A stretch of DNA of 64,000 bases from a virus. Below the pieces are notes generated by a model. That model ran no database searches. It was not told the DNA's origin and was given only the letters and a program-made list of their open reading frames with translations. Where the stretch lies: IMG/VR virus record IMGVR_UViG_3300022187_000017, positions 1 through 64,000 of that record. One strand, given 5' to 3'. Position numbers and translations under genes: made by a program. This document shows positions 49,320-62,597 of the stretch, one piece after another. Position 1 is the first letter of the stretch; every line of letters begins with the position of its first letter.

Positions 49320-50108
49320 TTACATCACCCAATCCTCTACTATATCTGGCTCTACTCCTGCCTCCAGAGCTTCCTGTACTGACTTGATAGATTCTCCATT
49401 CTTGAATGTATGGCCTATCTGCTCCTCTACAGCTACATACTCAGCTAATAACTCTGGGTTCTCTTTACCTGCTATTAGGAGTGCATTGAATGGACTGAAG
49501 ATACAGAAACAACATGACAGCCTTGGCATCCCCAGATCATATGCTTTATGATACTCCAGATTGTTACCCTTGATCACATCCCAGACCTTCTTAGAGCTCC
49601 AGTCATGTACAGGTAGATAATCTATCACTGTCCTCTTCTTAGTGGTTAACTGCTTATTTAATGACTCCACCTTTCTCTTAGATCTGGCTGGAGACTCCTC
49701 TGCTCTGAATCCAAATACATACAGGATCTTACAAACTCCCATCTCTTTAGTTAGCTTAGTTACTACTCTAGCACCCGGGCCACGCTTGAAATCACTGGTA
49801 CACCATCTCTGTTGGCTACTTGGCCACTTACCTCTCCTCACTGCATACTCCAGAAGATCCTCCTCATAGCCATCCTTATCTCTTCTCTTGCTGTAATAGG
49901 TCTTTAGTCCCCAGTGATCAGATTGTCTCTTAACTAGCTCCTTTGTGCCTTTCCACTCAACCTTACCTAGATCCTGATGTGACACTACTAACTGATCCAG
50001 AGGATAGCACTGTTCCAATGCCATCTGAACCATTTGCCAGACAGACACTAGAGAGTCCTTCCCTCCAGATGAATTGATGATCACTAGATCATAGTCAGCT
50101 AAGATCAT
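49320..50108 (-). CDS. PAPS-reductase-family PP-loop protein (CysH/DndC-like) with Fe-S Cys motifs
   Basis: SGGKDS PP-loop, RWCTSDFK, GFRAEESPARS, AYDLGMPRLSCCFC. Confidence 0.88.
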   Translation of the reverse strand: MILADYDLVIINSSGGKDSLVSVWQMVQMALEQCYPLDQLVVSHQDLGKVEWKGTKELVKRQSDHWGLKTYYSKRRDKDGYEEDLLEYAVRRGKWPSSQQRWCTSDFKRGPGARVVTKLTKEMGVCKILYVFGFRAEESPARSKRKVESLNKQLTTKKRTVIDYLPVHDWSSKKVWDVIKGNNLEYHKAYDLGMPRLSCCFCIFSPFNALLIAGKENPELLAEYVAVEEQIGHTFKNGESIKSVQEALEAGVEPDIVEDWVM

Positions 50109-50483: not shown

Positions 50484-50520
50484 GGTGTAAATATAGTTAC
50501 TATATATTTACTGTGCAAAT
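50484..50520 (-). promoter_or_regulatory. Bacteroidota sigma-type early promoter
   Basis: TTTGCACAGTAAATATATAGTAACTATATTTAC. Confidence 0.72.
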
Positions 50521-50859: not shown

Positions 50860-51756
50860 CTAATATTTACTCATTACACAATGGCCATGGGACATCTTGT
50901 AGTCCACCAGCTCCTGCTCTGTCATATGCCCAAACTTCTCCAGAGCTGTTTTAAGGACTTCTGGGAGAGGATCTTTCTTACCCCACACACCAAGATTCTT
51001 TTCTTCCATGTGCTCATTAGCCTTCATCTTATTGGCCTCCAGCTTCACCCAGAGGTCATATGATGCTCTGTCATATCTATACAAGTACAATAACTCCTGC
51101 AGGCTCATGAATGGACATAAGATGCAATTGGAAGGATAAGGTACCTTCTCACCTACACTGGTGATGTAATCCTGACATGCTTGCCGATCCATACCCTCTT
51201 CAATCAATGGATACTGCTTATTGATGCAAGTATTAAACCATTTCATCCCACTGGAGCCATTCTCAGAGGCTCTCTTCTCTTCTCCCTTAGCAATGCCTAT
51301 AAGTACATTGATCTTCCCGTACTTCTCAGCAAACTCATAGAATGCTGCTTTCCTACCATACTTCTCAGTGTTGTAGTTGTGATGTACATACAGCTCTAGG
51401 AACTTGTAGATAGGCCTGATCTTCAGGTTATCTGTACAAGTCTTAGGGAATGCCTTAGATCCAACTGTATTTTTGCTCTGGTAGAATTTGATCAATCCAC
51501 CCTTCCAGCTATTGGATGCCCATAGATCAGGCTCCAGATGAAAGAATGGGATCTTATGCTCATCACATAGCTCTTCTACTCTCTCCAGATACTTATCAGT
51601 ATGATCATGCTCATTTCTGGTATTAGCCATAACCACAATAAGATCACCCTTCACATATTTGGCCTTGAATACTGGATCATGTAAACACTTAAAGAGGATG
51701 GCAGTTGAATCCTGCCCTCCTCCATAAGATAACATTGTAAGCTCTTTCTTCTCCAT
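50860..51756 (-). CDS. Second PAPS-reductase-like PP-loop protein (phage subfamily)
   Basis: SYGGGQDS, ANTRNEH, CTDNLKIRPI, IGIAKGEEKRA, YPLIE, SNCILCPF. Confidence 0.8.
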   Translation of the reverse strand: MEKKELTMLSYGGGQDSTAILFKCLHDPVFKAKYVKGDLIVVMANTRNEHDHTDKYLERVEELCDEHKIPFFHLEPDLWASNSWKGGLIKFYQSKNTVGSKAFPKTCTDNLKIRPIYKFLELYVHHNYNTEKYGRKAAFYEFAEKYGKINVLIGIAKGEEKRASENGSSGMKWFNTCINKQYPLIEEGMDRQACQDYITSVGEKVPYPSNCILCPFMSLQELLYLYRYDRASYDLWVKLEANKMKANEHMEEKNLGVWGKKDPLPEVLKTALEKFGHMTEQELVDYKMSHGHCVMSKY

Positions 51757-52105: not shown

Positions 52106-52141
52106 GATGTAAATATAGTTACTATATCTCATTCCTGCAAG
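52106..52141 (-). promoter_or_regulatory. Bacteroidota sigma-type early promoter
   Basis: CTTGCAGGAATGAGATATAGTAACTATATTTAC. Confidence 0.7.
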
Positions 52142-52291: not shown

Positions 52292-52333
52292 ATAAAAAAG
52301 GGAGGATTTACGATCCATTACTGGATTCCTCCC
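52292..52333 (-). terminator. Terminator ending the tmRNA coding piece
   Basis: GGGAGGA-(ATCCA GTAA TGGAT CGTAAA)-TCCTCCC-TTTTTT. Confidence 0.8.
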
Positions 52334-52576
52334 ATACGTCTTATGCAGCCATTCTAAATGGTGCAGTAGATTGTTGTATAACTTCTGGAGTTATAATTAA
52401 AATAGCCTCCTTTATCGCTTCTTTACGCTGTCAAAACCAGTCTACCCCATGTTCCCAGATATAGTGCTGGGATCACTTCCACTTTTTAAACAACCTCCTT
52501 CTGGAGATAGTGGAGTAGATGGGAGTCGAACCCATGTCCAAACATAATCCACAATAATATCAACGAACTACTTTGC
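52292..52576 (-). ncRNA. ssrA: Circularly permuted (two-piece) tmRNA
   Basis: Minus-strand order: acceptor piece (~52576-52511, ...GGACATGGGTTCGACTCCCATCTACTCCA), 62-nt intervening segment (52510-52449), coding piece from GGGGTAGACTGGTTTTGACAG (52448) with tag ORF 52388-52341 PEVIQQSTAPFRMAA*. Acceptor stem GGGGTAG/CTACTCC has G3.U70 and A73. Confidence 0.92.
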
Positions 52577-52578
52577 TG

Positions 52579-52586
52579 TAAAGATA
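52579..52586 (-). promoter_or_regulatory. Putative -7 promoter element for tmRNA
   Basis: TATCTTTA (TAnnTTTR) a few nt upstream of the acceptor piece. Confidence 0.5.
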
Positions 52587-52649
52587 GTAAATCTATCGCT
52601 TTGTATATGATTTCGTTTTAATGAATTATATACTTTGTTGTGTGTAGTT

Positions 52650-52712
52650 TTATACCCGATAAGGTATAATATATGATACATTAACCTATATTATACCCGA
52701 TAAGGTATAATA
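52650..52712. repeat. Two 22-bp direct repeats, each an imperfect palindrome (TTATACC-CGATAA-GGTATAA)
   Basis: ttatacccgataaggtataata at 52650-52671 and 52691-52712. Confidence 0.85.
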
Positions 52713-52725
52713 ACTCACTCATAAA

Positions 52726-53325
52726 TTACACACAACTCTTTATATGATTATCTAGAAGATAAAAACATACATCTGGCTTTCTGGCCTCATCATCATTATA
52801 GTCTATAGGCATCCCTACAGCCTCTTCTACAGTCTTAACCACTATTGTATGCTTCAATCCATATTCCTCTATTAAATGATCATCCCTACCTCCATAACTA
52901 GCTGTTAGGACTAAATTGGAAGGGATCTCATCTATTCTGGCTACCCAATATCTCAGAGACTTTGTATATGCCCAGAATTCAACCTCTGGATGATCTCTAC
53001 ATAACTGCAGCCACATGTCAAAGTATTTCTGGGAGAAGAAGTCTCCAGATGAATGGATCCTTACTGACTCACATTTATTGGGAATCACTGGGATCCCTCC
53101 AGCTCTTGCAAAATCAAAGTTATCCCATCTATGATCTCTCACTGCTGGGAATCTCTCTGCACTGGCTGCATAACATCTATATGCATCACTGCTGTTCTCA
53201 AACTTACCTGTCTCCCTGTCTACCTTCACTAAGCATTCCTCAGCAAATGGACAGGTATGGCCTGTTGGCATGTTCCATTCAAATACTACACCAGTGTAAT
53301 ATTTAGTCTTTCTTGTAAACTTCAT
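52726..53325 (-). CDS. Gp88-like (radical-SAM-related) protein
   Basis: TCPFA..C...CYA, VRIHSSGDFFS, FWAYTKS, PSNLVLTAS motifs. Confidence 0.8.
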   Translation of the reverse strand: MKFTRKTKYYTGVVFEWNMPTGHTCPFAEECLVKVDRETGKFENSSDAYRCYAASAERFPAVRDHRWDNFDFARAGGIPVIPNKCESVRIHSSGDFFSQKYFDMWLQLCRDHPEVEFWAYTKSLRYWVARIDEIPSNLVLTASYGGRDDHLIEEYGLKHTIVVKTVEEAVGMPIDYNDDEARKPDVCFYLLDNHIKSCV

Positions 53326-54182: not shown

Positions 54183-54218
54183 GGTGTAAATATATACTAA
54201 CTATATTTAATACACAAC
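54183..54218 (-). promoter_or_regulatory. Bacteroidota sigma-type early promoter
   Basis: GTTGTGTATTAAATATAGTTAGTATATATTTAC. Confidence 0.65.
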
Positions 54219-56532: not shown

Positions 56533-57366
56533 TCATTTATTTTTATCTACCAGTACCATCCCATAGTCATTTACTCCCTCTGGGATCTGTAGGCCCTGCT
56601 TCTTGATCATCTCATTATTCTTGAATCCACTATAATTCACCTGATGATGCCATCTCTCATACCTCCAGACTACCTTCACAACATCAGGATGCTGCCTCTG
56701 GAGACTCTCAGCAAACTCTTTCCTGTTATTGGTGTCTTTATATACCTCATCAGTATTGCCTCCCTTCATCTTCATTGTTGTGGCCTTCTGCTGTATGAAT
56801 GCATTGAATAGGACTGTTGGATGCCCATCCTTCAGGATCCTAAGACATAGATCTGTATCCTCATTGTACTTACCTCTCCACCTGTACTCCAGATCATTCT
56901 TGATCAATGTGCAGCTGTAGATCCTGTTATTCCTTGAGAATGCTGGCATGACTGTCTTGGCCTTGGCAAAGTGATCATACTGGAATCCTGCTAGTGCTAT
57001 GTTCTCATATCGATCTACAAAGATCTCTGCACACCTGAAGATAGTGCCATCTGTCACCTTCACCTGCAGGTTCCTGTTGAGTCTATTGAACTGCTCTATA
57101 TTGTCATCTAATAACCAGTGCCTCTCATGGCCTTCTGCAATAGAATGCTCCCAGACATAGTTTCTAGCTGGAATGGATCCCTGCCCTAAATTACTGAATG
57201 GGAGCTTTAATATCTTCTCTGGATCAATTACCTCAGCATAGCTATCATACTCCTGTGGCTCCACAACTATACGATAAGGGACTTTCATCCTCTCCAGAGT
57301 CTTAGATGTCATCCTTGACTTCCATCTGCCTTTAGAAATGATATAAACTGGATATTTAGGATTCAT
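56533..57366 (-). CDS. GREB1/TAGT-like GT-A glycosyltransferase (candidate DNA-base modifier)
   Basis: YPVYIISKGR, VVEPQEY..Y, ARNYVWEH, WLLDDNI, YNEDTDL, KGGNT motifs. Confidence 0.8.
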   Translation of the reverse strand: MNPKYPVYIISKGRWKSRMTSKTLERMKVPYRIVVEPQEYDSYAEVIDPEKILKLPFSNLGQGSIPARNYVWEHSIAEGHERHWLLDDNIEQFNRLNRNLQVKVTDGTIFRCAEIFVDRYENIALAGFQYDHFAKAKTVMPAFSRNNRIYSCTLIKNDLEYRWRGKYNEDTDLCLRILKDGHPTVLFNAFIQQKATTMKMKGGNTDEVYKDTNNRKEFAESLQRQHPDVVKVVWRYERWHHQVNYSGFKNNEMIKKQGLQIPEGVNDYGMVLVDKNK

Positions 57367-61661: not shown

Positions 61662-62597
61662 TCAGCTTGCCTGTTTTGTCTTTGTGAAGATCTCTCCCTT
61701 GTGTAAAGATAGGCCTAATAATTTAATATTGGCTATCATATCCTGCTTATTCCAGTATCCTTGACTGGATGCTCCAATGATTTTACCATTGGATGCTGTT
61801 ACTCTCCATCTCCACTTCCATAGCTTTCTATAGATCTCTACTGGATAAGGATGTTGTACTGGCACTTCTGTTTTCATTGTTCTATTGTTATTTGTGTTAC
61901 TATTATACTCAAACCATCTTGATTTGAACAGGAATCTCTTTCTATCTGTTCCTATCATCAGGTTAAAATAGTTTCTCTTTTTATTGAATATTCTCAATAC
62001 TCTTCTTAACCAAACTCTATCAAGGGGAAGTGTAAATGAATATCTAAAGTGCTTTGTTCCTCTTAATCGAAATGTAATCTTTTGTATCCCGAATATGGTT
62101 TTATTTCTCCAGATAAGAGGGTGACCAATTCCTTCTACTTTAAGAACATTGAGATGTTCATTTATCTCTGCACTTGTGTAGTTAGGAGTGATTAATCTTC
62201 CTAATGCTACTTTTGTATTCCATGTCCAGTTACGAAATGCTCCCCATGCATATGAAAGGAAGAATCTCTTGATAGCTCCATAATCCTCTTCAAATATCTG
62301 GTACTTGTCTCGGATGATATTTCCATACGGATCTACCTCATCATCTATCATCTCGTATACCCCATACCAATTATCAATATGAGCTCTCTCTGGGTCTCCT
62401 CCTCCTTGTTCATCTGAATTAGAAACCCACCATAACAATAGCCACTTCCAAAGTGTTGGGTTCTTGTCAATGGATCTCCTGAAGATGTATGCTAGCCAAT
62501 ATAATACAAATCCTACTGGCCATAAGATTAATACTTCAACAATAAACTTGAAGAAGAAGAATTTGAAGTACATCCATATGTTTTCTAAATGTCTCAT
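61662..62597 (-). CDS. Membrane protein with C-terminal DUF1508 (YegP-like) domain, probably also an internal start at 61877
   Basis: N-terminal TM; C-terminal WRWRVTASNGKIIGASSQGY. Confidence 0.6.
   Translation of the reverse strand: MRHLENIWMYFKFFFFKFIVEVLILWPVGFVLYWLAYIFRRSIDKNPTLWKWLLLWWVSNSDEQGGGDPERAHIDNWYGVYEMIDDEVDPYGNIIRDKYQIFEEDYGAIKRFFLSYAWGAFRNWTWNTKVALGRLITPNYTSAEINEHLNVLKVEGIGHPLIWRNKTIFGIQKITFRLRGTKHFRYSFTLPLDRVWLRRVLRIFNKKRNYFNLMIGTDRKRFLFKSRWFEYNSNTNNNRTMKTEVPVQHPYPVEIYRKLWKWRWRVTASNGKIIGASSQGYWNKQDMIANIKLLGLSLHKGEIFTKTKQAS

What the first reader, a model, noticed from the sequence alone, without database searches (positions are those of the whole stretch)
52292..52576. Circularly permuted two-piece tmRNA carried by a probable Bacteroidota phage
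Seen: on the minus strand the tmRNA 3' half (T-arm CATGG-GTTCGACT-CCCAT region, then CTACTCCA) comes before the 5' half (GGGGTAGACTGGTTTTGACAG), with 62 nt between them. The halves are complementary to each other: acceptor stem GGGGTAG/CTACTCC with the G3.U70 Ala determinant, then AGCGTAA/TTATGTT, GCGATAA/TTATTGT and GGCTATTTT/AAAGTAGTT forming a long helix 2. A -7-like element lies upstream and a terminator follows the tag. Established: permuted ssrA is known from alphaproteobacteria, some cyanobacteria, some betaproteobacteria and mitochondria, while Bacteroidota chromosomal ssrA is normally one-piece. Inference: an independent permutation in a phage, giving it its own trans-translation RNA, possibly resistant to host or anti-phage RNases that cut the host tmRNA.
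Basis: partly seen in the sequence, partly recalled or inferred. Interest (0 to 1): 0.92.

Follow-up and report, generated by a model that had tools for sequence, protein, structure and literature searches.

The report
Phage two-piece tmRNA, Bacteroidota type
This 106-kb phage carries a real, stripped-down ribosome-rescue RNA (tmRNA) gene written in swapped order; it belongs to a family of such genes found only in phages of Bacteroidota, apparently derived from the hosts' ordinary one-piece tmRNA, and public records already annotate some members without describing them as a separate lineage.

Summary
On the minus strand, 52574-52294 is a circularly permuted tmRNA gene. Rfam's permuted-tmRNA model scores 56.1 bits (cut-off 47); ARAGORN misses it. 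I found 21 relatives with the same layout. Most are on viral or metagenome contigs; two are GenBank records already annotated as tmRNA (Chryseobacterium phage MA9V-3 and crAss-like phage cr125_1). Across 15 aligned members the acceptor stem (G3·U70 in all 15), T stem and helix 2a show compensatory changes. The tags are homologous peptides ending in Ala-Ala.

The tRNA-like domain matches Bacteroidota one-piece tmRNA (80-98% identical, no encoded CCA, Gly resume codon in most). A tree rejects a common origin with other phage permuted tmRNAs (p 0.005). None was found in Bacteroidota genomes. The "independent permutation" reading is therefore supported, but for a whole phage family, not this phage alone.

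The gene has no room for pseudoknots and the phage has no SmpB. This copy resumes on a proline codon, which probably explains ARAGORN's miss. The window's distal helix 2 is no better than chance by energy. The RNase-resistance idea is untested.

Phage two-piece tmRNAs are already published (marine phages), and this scan noted the same kind in another genome (e1-5869850). Moderate interest: a new variant of a known kind.

The parts
52577..52591 (-). Promoter-like element TTTACTATCTTTACA. It contains TATCTTTA (a one-mismatch match to the Bacteroidota -7 box TAnnTTTG) 5 nt upstream of the first helix-2 base.
   Evidence: Sequence. CTAT[AC]TTTACA is exact at 50486, 52108, 52577 and 61702, all on the minus strand upstream of gene starts. 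Promoter function is inferred.
52511..52574 (-). Acceptor piece (~64 nt, CCA to be added). It holds the 3' strands of helix 2 (52574-52541), UGGAC, the T arm (52535-52519), the acceptor 3' strand (52518-52512) and discriminator A52511.
   Evidence: Rfam RF04321. Covariation in T stem, acceptor stem and helix 2a. The 5' end is inferred from the promoter element.
52449..52510 (-). Excised intervening segment, 62 nt. It has a trailer hairpin (52508-52493) just after the discriminator and a leader hairpin (52472-52453) 4 nt before G1.
   Evidence: Both hairpins appear in the MFE fold. The same two-hairpin layout is seen in relatives, and L192/L193 carry a tRNA-Ala gene at this place.
52294..52448 (-). 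Coding piece (~155 nt). It holds the acceptor 5' strand GGGGUAG (52448-42), the D-loop analogue ACUGGUUUUGACAG, the helix-2 5' strands (52429-52398), the resume hairpin, the tag frame and the terminator.
   Evidence: Rfam alignment, sequence, cofold/duplex.
52377..52395 (-). 7-bp hairpin UAUAACU/AGUUAUA with the presumed resume codon CCA in its loop (CCAGA).
   Evidence: Sequence. Equivalent hairpins with GGC or GCA in the loop occur in L060, L181, L185 and L193-197, with a U-A to C-G compensatory change. Only 61% of cells pair over the 15 aligned sequences.
52341..52388 (-). Tag reading frame: CCA ... GCU GCA UAA, giving (A)PEVIQQSTAPFRMAA followed by a stop.
   Evidence: Frame and peptide. 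It aligns codon for codon with GKVVNLFNAPLRATA (L060), GKLIPMFNRSLRMAA (L183) and PKVVNLFNNSVEAAA (L191). ARAGORN calls the same frames in relatives.
52294..52333 (-). Intrinsic terminator: stem GGGAGGA/UCCUCCC with an inner hairpin and CGUAAA in the loop, then UUUUUU.
   Evidence: Fold. Similar terminal hairpins plus a U run occur in relatives. The consensus scan misses it because the loop is longer than 8 nt.

Best explanation
Window 52574-52294 (minus strand) is a phage-borne, circularly permuted ssrA gene. Inferred steps: one transcript runs from a phage promoter to an intrinsic terminator. Host RNase P cuts before G52448. A 3' processing enzyme (RNase Z type) trims after A52511, and the host CCA-adding enzyme completes the 3' end. 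The ~67-nt acceptor RNA and ~155-nt coding RNA stay paired through the acceptor stem and helix 2. Host AlaRS charges the pair with alanine (G3.U70, A73). Host SmpB and EF-Tu deliver it to ribosomes stalled on broken mRNAs during infection. Translation resumes at CCA52388 and appends (A)PEVIQQSTAPFRMAA before the stop, freeing the ribosome and marking the peptide. The gene belongs to a pseudoknot-free family restricted, as far as I searched, to phages of Bacteroidota. The family derives from the Bacteroidota one-piece tmRNA, independently of the alpha-, beta-proteobacterial and cyanobacterial permuted lineages. Shown here: gene anatomy, conservation and covariation, tag homology, and Bacteroidota affinity of the tRNA-like domain. 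Inferred: transcription limits, processing, charging, SmpB dependence, and benefit to the phage.
For: - **Rfam:** RF04321 scores 56.1 bits against a cut-off of 47.
- **Relatives:** 21 relatives share the permuted layout. All 8 scanned at gathering threshold score 55-68 bits; cr125_1 is just below at 46.3.
- **Covariation:** on 15 sequences, 85.6% of cells pair against 42-51% when partners are slid. There are 43 double-change cells, reached by 0 of 500 shuffles. The acceptor stem is 100% paired with U.G at pair 3 in 15/15, the T stem 97%, helix 2a 73-92%.
- **Tags:** they are homologous, in frame, end in AA/VA/TA plus a stop, and vary at third codon positions.
- **Bacteroidota affinity:** the tRNA-like domain is 80-98% identical to Bacteroidota one-piece tmRNAs and 53-73% to the RF04321 consensus. 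Both share a missing CCA and a GGC resume codon.
- **Tree:** the phage family and Bacteroidota one-piece genes form one clade (96/89). One clade of all permuted genes is rejected (p-AU 0.0047).
- **Cellular genomes:** no permuted copy in 185,579 species genomes by pattern, and none above cut-off in 151 genomes drawn from the phylum of Aquimarina aggregata.
- **Phage setting:** sheath, major head protein and portal are present. The nearest isolates are Bacteroides phages (40% major-head-protein (MCP) identity) and a Chryseobacterium phage (33%).
- **tRNA context:** relatives sit in tRNA arrays or hold a tRNA in the spacer.
Against: - There are no expression, processing or charging data.
- ARAGORN does not call this copy.
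- The resume codon is CCA (Pro), which I recall (not checked here) to be rare for tmRNA and a slow substrate for peptide-bond formation.
- Distal helix 2 of this copy is AU/GU-rich and not better than shuffled or non-cognate partners.
- All four pseudoknots of the one-piece form are absent, so activity could be reduced.
- No SmpB gene is in the phage, so function depends on an unidentified host.
- Both the relatives and the Bacteroidota reference set were collected with sequence patterns, which inflates similarity in about 16 of the 75 tree columns.
Confidence: 0.8

Rival explanations
1. It is a decoy rather than a rescuer. The tRNA-like domain titrates host SmpB or AlaRS and dampens host trans-translation, as proposed for the TLD-only RNA of mycobacteriophage DS6A. 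The tag frame in this copy would then be decaying.
For: Pseudoknots are absent, the resume codon is an unusual Pro, distal helix 2 is weak in this copy, and the phage has no SmpB. The DS6A precedent is cited in PMC4131195 and PMC11915505.
Against: The tag frame is intact and the same length as in relatives. It is conserved at the peptide level with synonymous changes, ends in AA plus a stop, and keeps the upstream AUAACU context. A second member (L191) also uses CCA, so the Pro codon is tolerated.
Confidence: 0.1
2. The gene was captured from a known permuted lineage (alphaproteobacterial, betaproteobacterial or cyanobacterial), directly or through marine phages. Its tRNA-like domain was later remodelled to fit a Bacteroidota host.
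For: Among the older Rfam models the best is beta_tmRNA, at 31.5 bits on the tRNA domain only. Phage two-piece tmRNAs of those types are common in marine phages (PMC9004378; 25 IMG/VR contigs).
Against: The 31.5 bits are far below beta_tmRNA's cut-off of 84 and cover only the universal core. The tRNA-like domain, the missing CCA, the GGC resume codon and its upstream context are the Bacteroidota one-piece type. One clade of all permuted genes is rejected (p-AU 0.0047).
Confidence: 0.06
3. It is a non-functional juxtaposition of ssrA fragments, for example an attP-like 3' fragment next to a captured 5' fragment, or an assembly artefact.
For: Phages that integrate into ssrA carry 3' fragments of it, as mentioned in PMC9004378.
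Against: The same order recurs in 21 independent contigs from different samples, with compensatory changes between the two halves. The gene has its own promoter-like element and terminator, and no integrase context was seen nearby.
Confidence: 0.03

Closest known systems
Two-piece (circularly permuted) tmRNA of Alphaproteobacteria, a betaproteobacterial group and some Cyanobacteria (Rfam RF01849, RF01850, RF01851, merged in RF04321; Keiler 2000 and Sharkady & Williams 2004, as cited in PMC9004378 and PMC11915505)
   Same: The gene order is acceptor piece, intervening segment, coding piece. The acceptor stem forms between the two RNAs, and G3.U70, the T arm and an Ala-rich tag end are present. 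It scores above RF04321's cut-off.
   Different: The tRNA-like domain has the Bacteroidota signature (ACUGGUUUUGACAGC, UUUGGAC), not the consensus of those lineages (53-73% identity). CCA is not encoded. The resume codon is Gly or Pro. There is no pseudoknot. It was found only in phages. The tree rejects a common permuted clade.
Phage-encoded two-piece tmRNAs of marine myophages (OM43 phage Melnitz, pelagimyophages, cyanophages; PMC9004378)
   Same: A permuted ssrA carried by a lytic-looking myovirus in the early region, without a phage SmpB.
   Different: Those are of alphaproteobacterial or cyanobacterial type, and some carry a glutamine riboswitch. This one is of Bacteroidota type, with no riboswitch (no other Rfam hit).
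Permuted tmRNAs annotated in Chryseobacterium phage MA9V-3 (PV245944) and crAss-like phage cr125_1 (NC_055900)
   Same: Same family: same tRNA-like domain, no CCA, no pseudoknot room, G-resume tags (GNVIDINKYVAKLEVAA, GNFYVTDYTRIAA). RF04321 scores 64.7 and 46.3 bits.
   Different: The phage families differ. cr125_1 has a 166-nt spacer. Their resume codons are GGA/GGC, so ARAGORN finds them. The records only say 'tmRNA'; I found no paper discussing them.
One-piece tmRNA of Bacteroidota (Rfam RF00023) and of Cellulophaga phage Calle_1
   Same: Nearly identical 5' and 3' tRNA-like halves (up to 98%). CCA is not encoded, the resume codon is GGC, and one relative's tag GNNYEMRAAA resembles the host GENNYALAA.
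   Different: Those are one RNA of 362-399 nt in the 54 extracted here, with pseudoknots. Here the order is swapped, the segment between the tag and helix 2 is gone, and PK1 is gone.

Membership tests
tmRNA, permuted/two-piece form (RF04321) | Score at or above the family's curated gathering threshold | tested here: met
   56.1 bits against 47, full model 1-213.
tmRNA, permuted/two-piece form (RF04321) | 3' tRNA-like half precedes the 5' half, and a 7-bp acceptor stem forms between them | tested here: met
   CUACUCC (52518-12) pairs with GGGGUAG (52448-42). The stem is 100% paired in 15 relatives, with compensatory changes at pairs 5 and 6.
tmRNA, permuted/two-piece form (RF04321) | Alanine identity elements: G3.U70 and discriminator A73 | tested here: met
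   U.G at columns 74/185 in 15/15 sequences, and A follows the acceptor strand in all. Charging itself is not testable here.
tmRNA, permuted/two-piece form (RF04321) | T arm with GGUUCGAnUCC and no anticodon arm, replaced by helix 2 | tested here: met
   The T stem is 97% paired with two covarying pairs. Helix 2a is 73-92% paired with three covarying pairs. Distal helix 2 of this copy is inconclusive (z -0.93).
tmRNA, permuted/two-piece form (RF04321) | Internal tag reading frame without a start codon, ending in an Ala-rich or hydrophobic C-terminus plus a stop | tested here: met
   (A)PEVIQQSTAPFRMAA*, homologous to tags of relatives.
tmRNA, permuted/two-piece form (RF04321) | Processing into two RNAs, alanylation and SmpB binding | not testable with these tools
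   Needs infected cells or biochemistry. No SmpB gene is in the phage.
tmRNA (general) | Pseudoknot PK1 between helix 2 and the resume codon (PK2-4 after the tag in one-piece forms) | tested here: not met
   The resume codon is at nt 61 of the coding piece, only 8 nt after the last helix-2 base. In Bacteroidota one-piece genes it lies at about nt 97. After the stop only a terminator follows.
Alpha / beta / cyano permuted lineages (RF01849-51) | Lineage-specific sequence and structure, scoring above those models' cut-offs | tested here: not met
   The best is beta_tmRNA at 31.5 bits against 84, on the tRNA core only. Identity to the permuted consensus is 58%. One clade of all permuted genes is rejected.
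Bacteroidota-type tmRNA tRNA-like domain | GGGGnnGACUGGUUUUGACAGC at the 5' end, (U)UUGGAC before the T arm, and no encoded CCA | tested here: met
   The 5' motif hits almost only Bacteroidota records in genome contigs. None of the commonest triplets after the discriminator in the 54 extracted one-piece genes is CCA. The window has all three features.

The most novel reading that the evidence does not exclude
Phages of Bacteroidota have evolved their own fourth bacterial-type lineage of two-piece tmRNA from the host one-piece gene. It is pseudoknot-free and carries its own conserved 15-residue tag family (xKV[VI]xLFxAPLRAxA, here resuming on proline) in place of the host GENNYALAA. The phage would then not merely top up ribosome rescue but re-label stalled host or phage nascent chains for a different fate, or replace a host tmRNA that is lost or attacked during infection.
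Probability: 0.2. Interest if true: 0.75.

Novelty: new variant of a known kind. Interest (0 to 1): 0.5.

Why it matters
Permuted tmRNA genes are a textbook case of repeated RNA gene rearrangement: three bacterial lineages plus mitochondria. A further independent origin adds a natural experiment on what a tmRNA minimally needs. This one is confined to phages, derived from the Bacteroidota gene, and lacks every pseudoknot and the encoded CCA. It also shows that abundant gut and aquatic Bacteroidota phages, including crAss-like ones, invest in ribosome rescue with tags unlike the host's. There is a practical point too. ARAGORN misses this copy and five others of the 22, and RF04321 sits close to its threshold, so such genes are under-annotated. 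Chryseobacterium phage MA9V-3 offers a cultured system in which to test the family.

Tried and rejected
- **ARAGORN:** it finds nothing on the window, on the whole 105.8-kb genome, or with a lowered threshold.
- **Relatives by capsid:** megablast of 15 kb against cultured phages gave no match. Thirty viral records related by major head protein were searched with RF04321 and none carries the gene. Bacteroides phages DAC16 and SJC03 also lack it. The gene therefore does not track the capsid lineage.
- **First DNA pattern:** an exact pattern for this copy found nothing. Relaxing the variable stem positions found the family.
- **RNAalifold:** on the 15-sequence alignment it recovered the acceptor and T stems but not helix 2, because the distal helices are not alignable by sequence.
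- **Helix-2 controls:** cognate against non-cognate and against shuffled duplex energies are decisive for some relatives (L055, L056, L058, L183, L199) but not for the window.
- **Sub-threshold RF04321 hits:** the top five hits (of 29-41 bits) in the 151 genomes drawn from Aquimarina aggregata's phylum were inspected and are the 5' halves of ordinary one-piece genes, not permuted genes.
- **Proteobacterial comparison set:** an attempt to draw one through a MAG titled 'Limnohabitans' returned the same genome sample as Aquimarina. I used other phage permuted tmRNAs instead.
- **TAnnTTTG as a host signal:** it is only mildly enriched in the window (81 against 59 ± 7), so it was not used as host evidence.
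- **Sigma-70-like site:** the site at 52582-52554 would start transcription inside the acceptor piece. I consider it irrelevant for a Bacteroidota host.
- **Literature:** eight searches found no paper describing a Bacteroidota-phage permuted tmRNA lineage.

Full report
**What is in the sequence**

The window is the first 64 kb of a 105,777-bp IMG/VR virus record estimated 98% complete. All long ORFs lie on the minus strand. They include a tail sheath, major head protein, prohead protease and portal, so this is a myovirus.
- T arm AUGGG-UUCGACU-CCCAU at 52535-52519.
- Acceptor 3' strand CUACUCC at 52518-52512, then discriminator A52511, then CUA rather than CCA.
- A 62-nt spacer at 52510-52449.
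- GGGGUAG starting at G52448, which pairs with the earlier strand and gives G3.U70.

Rfam's tmRNA_permuted model (RF04321) matches 52556-52341 end to end at 56.1 bits (gathering score 47, E 3e-8 for the window). It is the only Rfam family found anywhere in the phage genome. ARAGORN reports nothing in the window or the whole genome, even at lowered thresholds.

**Anatomy**

- **Promoter-like element.** TTTACTATCTTTACA (52591-52577) lies upstream. The core CTAT[AC]TTTACA occurs exactly four times in the window, all on the minus strand and upstream of gene starts. It contains TATCTTTA, one mismatch from the Bacteroidota -7 box TAnnTTTG, which I know from the literature. A start near 52574 is inferred.
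- **Spacer.** It folds into a hairpin directly after the discriminator (52508-52493) and another 4 nt before G1 (52472-52453).
- **Coding piece.** After G1 comes ACUGGUUUUGACAG, then the 5' strands of helix 2 (to about 52398). A 7-bp hairpin (52395-52377) follows, whose loop CCAGA holds the presumed resume codon. The frame CCA...GCU GCA UAA (52388-52341) encodes PEVIQQSTAPFRMAA.
- **Terminator.** GGGAGGA...UCCUCCC plus UUUUUU (52333-52294) follows. The simple terminator scan misses it because its loop is long.
- **No room for pseudoknots.** The resume codon is nt 61 of the coding piece, 8 nt after helix 2. In Bacteroidota one-piece genes it is near nt 97. After the stop there is only the terminator.
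- **No SmpB.** The phage encodes no SmpB.

**Relatives**

Thirty viral records related by capsid protein lack the gene. A pattern that fixes only the universal tRNA-like positions and leaves the stem positions free found:
- 15 IMG/VR contigs;
- 9 metagenome contigs, some duplicating the IMG/VR ones;
- none in 185,579 species-representative genomes.

BLAST with a relative added two public records. Chryseobacterium phage MA9V-3 (PV245944) scores 64.7 bits with RF04321. crAss-like phage cr125_1 (NC_055900) scores 46.3 bits and has a 166-nt spacer. Both are annotated simply as tmRNA, with the T arm at the start of the feature. Cellulophaga phage Calle_1 has a one-piece gene.

In all there are 22 distinct members. 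ARAGORN of them as permuted tmRNA, with the tags I had inferred. It fails or mis-tags where the resume codon is not G-initial (the window and L191, both CCA). Several members sit directly after or before tRNA genes, and two (L192, L193) carry a tRNA-Ala(UGC) gene inside the spacer. That fits maturation by tRNA-processing enzymes.

**Is the structure selected?**

On a 15-sequence alignment RNAalifold recovers the acceptor and T stems. For a structure of acceptor stem, T stem, helix 2a and resume hairpin:

| Measure | Result |
|---|---|
| Cells forming standard pairs | 85.6% (42-51% when partners are slid by 1-3 columns) |
| Cells with changes on both sides | 43 (13 ± 3 in shuffles; reached by 0 of 500) |
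| Acceptor stem | 100% paired; U.G at pair 3 in 15/15; pairs 5 and 6 covary |
| T stem | 97% paired |
| Helix 2a | 73-92% paired |
| Resume hairpin | 61% paired, present in only a subset |

The covarying positions were free (N) in the search pattern.

The distal helix 2 cannot be aligned by sequence. Per-sequence duplex energies are far better than shuffles in some members (L055, L056, L058, L181, L183, L199). They are not in the window (-15.1 kcal/mol, z -0.93). The window's pairings (AGCGUAA/UUAUGUU, GCGAUAA/UUAUUGU, GGCUAUUUU/AAAGUAGUU) are reproduced by RNAduplex and lie where the strong helices of relatives lie. On their own they are not above chance.

The tags are homologous peptides of equal length: GKVVNLFNAPLRATA, GKLIPMFNRSLRMAA, PKVVNLFNNSVEAAA, and the two-residue-longer AKVIQMNPFGTALRAVA. 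Third-codon-position differences among them (for example GCA/GCC, CCA/CCG, CUU/CUC/UUU) indicate that they are translated.

**Origin**

- The 5' motif GGGGnnGACUGGUUUUGACAGC retrieves almost only Bacteroidota records.
- The 54 one-piece genes extracted from them share the 3' half as well (…CUUGUUUGGAC-T arm-acceptor). They do not encode CCA, resume at GGC and encode GENNYALAA.
- L060's concatenated tRNA-like domain (64 nt) is 98% identical to that of Aquimarina.
- Concatenated tRNA-like domains of the phage family are 80-98% identical to the best Bacteroidota one-piece gene (window 81%). They are 53-73% identical to the RF04321 consensus, which was built from alpha, beta and cyano sequences.
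- In a maximum-likelihood tree, the family, the Bacteroidota one-piece genes and Calle_1 form one clade (96/89). The tree also included other one-piece genes drawn from the phylum of Aquimarina aggregata and 24 other phage permuted tmRNAs (CCA-encoding, UGGUUUCGAC type). Forcing all permuted genes together costs 51.7 log-likelihood units (p-AU 0.0047).
- Caveats: there are only 75 columns, and about 16 of them were constrained by the collecting patterns. Within the clade, permuted and one-piece genes are interleaved and unresolved, so one or several permutation events remain possible.
- No match above cut-off was found in 151 genomes drawn from the phylum of Aquimarina aggregata. The five best sub-threshold hits, which I inspected, are 5' halves of one-piece genes.
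- Host: the nearest cultured phages by major head protein infect Bacteroides (40%) and Chryseobacterium (33%).

**What is known**

The literature I could search recognises three bacterial permuted lineages plus mitochondria (PMC11915505, PMC9004378). It reports phage tmRNAs mainly in mycobacteriophages and phage G (PMC4131195). It reports two-piece tmRNAs in 53 of 133 distinct phage tmRNAs, nearly all marine and of alphaproteobacterial or cyanobacterial type (PMC9004378). Papers on flavobacterial phages only count tmRNA genes (PMC8776804).

The 2025 tmRNA database lists 48 'permuted' genes in Bacteroidota genomes, typed as alpha, beta or cyano. These may be this family on phage contigs; I could not check. 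I found no paper describing a Bacteroidota-derived permuted lineage. This scan has already reported the same kind of pseudoknot-free permuted tmRNA in a Bacteroidota jumbo phage that also has SmpB (note e1-5869850). My phage, MA9V-3 and cr125_1 have none.

**Verdict**

The gene is a genuine permuted tmRNA and most likely works as an ordinary trans-translation RNA using host SmpB, AlaRS, EF-Tu, RNase P, a 3' trimming enzyme and the CCA-adding enzyme.

The RNase-resistance idea is untested. The features particular to this copy are the proline resume codon and the weak distal helix 2.

It is a new variant of a known kind. It is partly present in databases already but not described as such. Interest is moderate.

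Noticed in passing
window 52650-52669 and 52691-52710 (minus strand): Two exact copies of the 20-nt palindrome TTATACCTTATCGGGTATAA, 41 nt apart. They lie between the Gp88-like gene and the tmRNA promoter element. 0.01 copies are expected by chance. They could be an operator pair or stem-loops, and they caused a spurious mir-507 hit.
   Followed up: partly
window 50486-50496, 52108-52118, 52577-52587, 61702-61712 (minus strand); 54185-54195 with one mismatch: The motif CTAT[AC]TTTACA recurs only on the coding strand, upstream of gene starts in the early region. It is probably a phage promoter element resembling the Bacteroidota -7 box.
   Followed up: partly
L192:4786-4860 and L193:4462-4536: A complete tRNA-Ala(UGC) gene sits inside the intervening segment of a permuted tmRNA of the same family. 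The spacer can therefore host another RNA released by the same processing enzymes.
   Followed up: partly
L199:1310-1478 (crAss-like phage cr125_1, NC_055900): A RAGATH-9 RNA (154 bits) lies directly upstream of, and abuts, that phage's permuted tmRNA gene.
   Followed up: no
window 52300-52333, and the terminal hairpins of L054, L182, L183, L190, L191, L192-197: The hairpin that ends the coding piece has a loop finishing in CG(U/A)AA(A) in most members, often after an inner hairpin. The same CUCGUAAA follows the PK1 hairpin in Bacteroidota one-piece genes. Its meaning is unknown.
   Followed up: no
window 49320-50108, 50860-51756, 52726-53325, 56533-57366 (minus strand): The tmRNA sits among candidate nucleic-acid modification genes. 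There are two PAPS-reductase/PP-loop-like proteins (one below Pfam's cut-off), a Gp88-family protein and a TET-associated glycosyltransferase (TAGT).
   Followed up: no
whole phage genome (G000, 105,777 bp): Neither ARAGORN nor Rfam finds a tRNA gene. The tmRNA is the only recognisable stable RNA, whereas many relatives of the tmRNA sit in tRNA arrays.
   Followed up: yes
L202-L218 (genomes drawn from the phylum of Aquimarina aggregata): RF04321 gives full-length alignments of 29-41 bits. The five best, which I inspected, are the 5' halves of ordinary one-piece tmRNAs. Sub-threshold 'permuted' hits should not be taken as permuted genes.
   Followed up: yes
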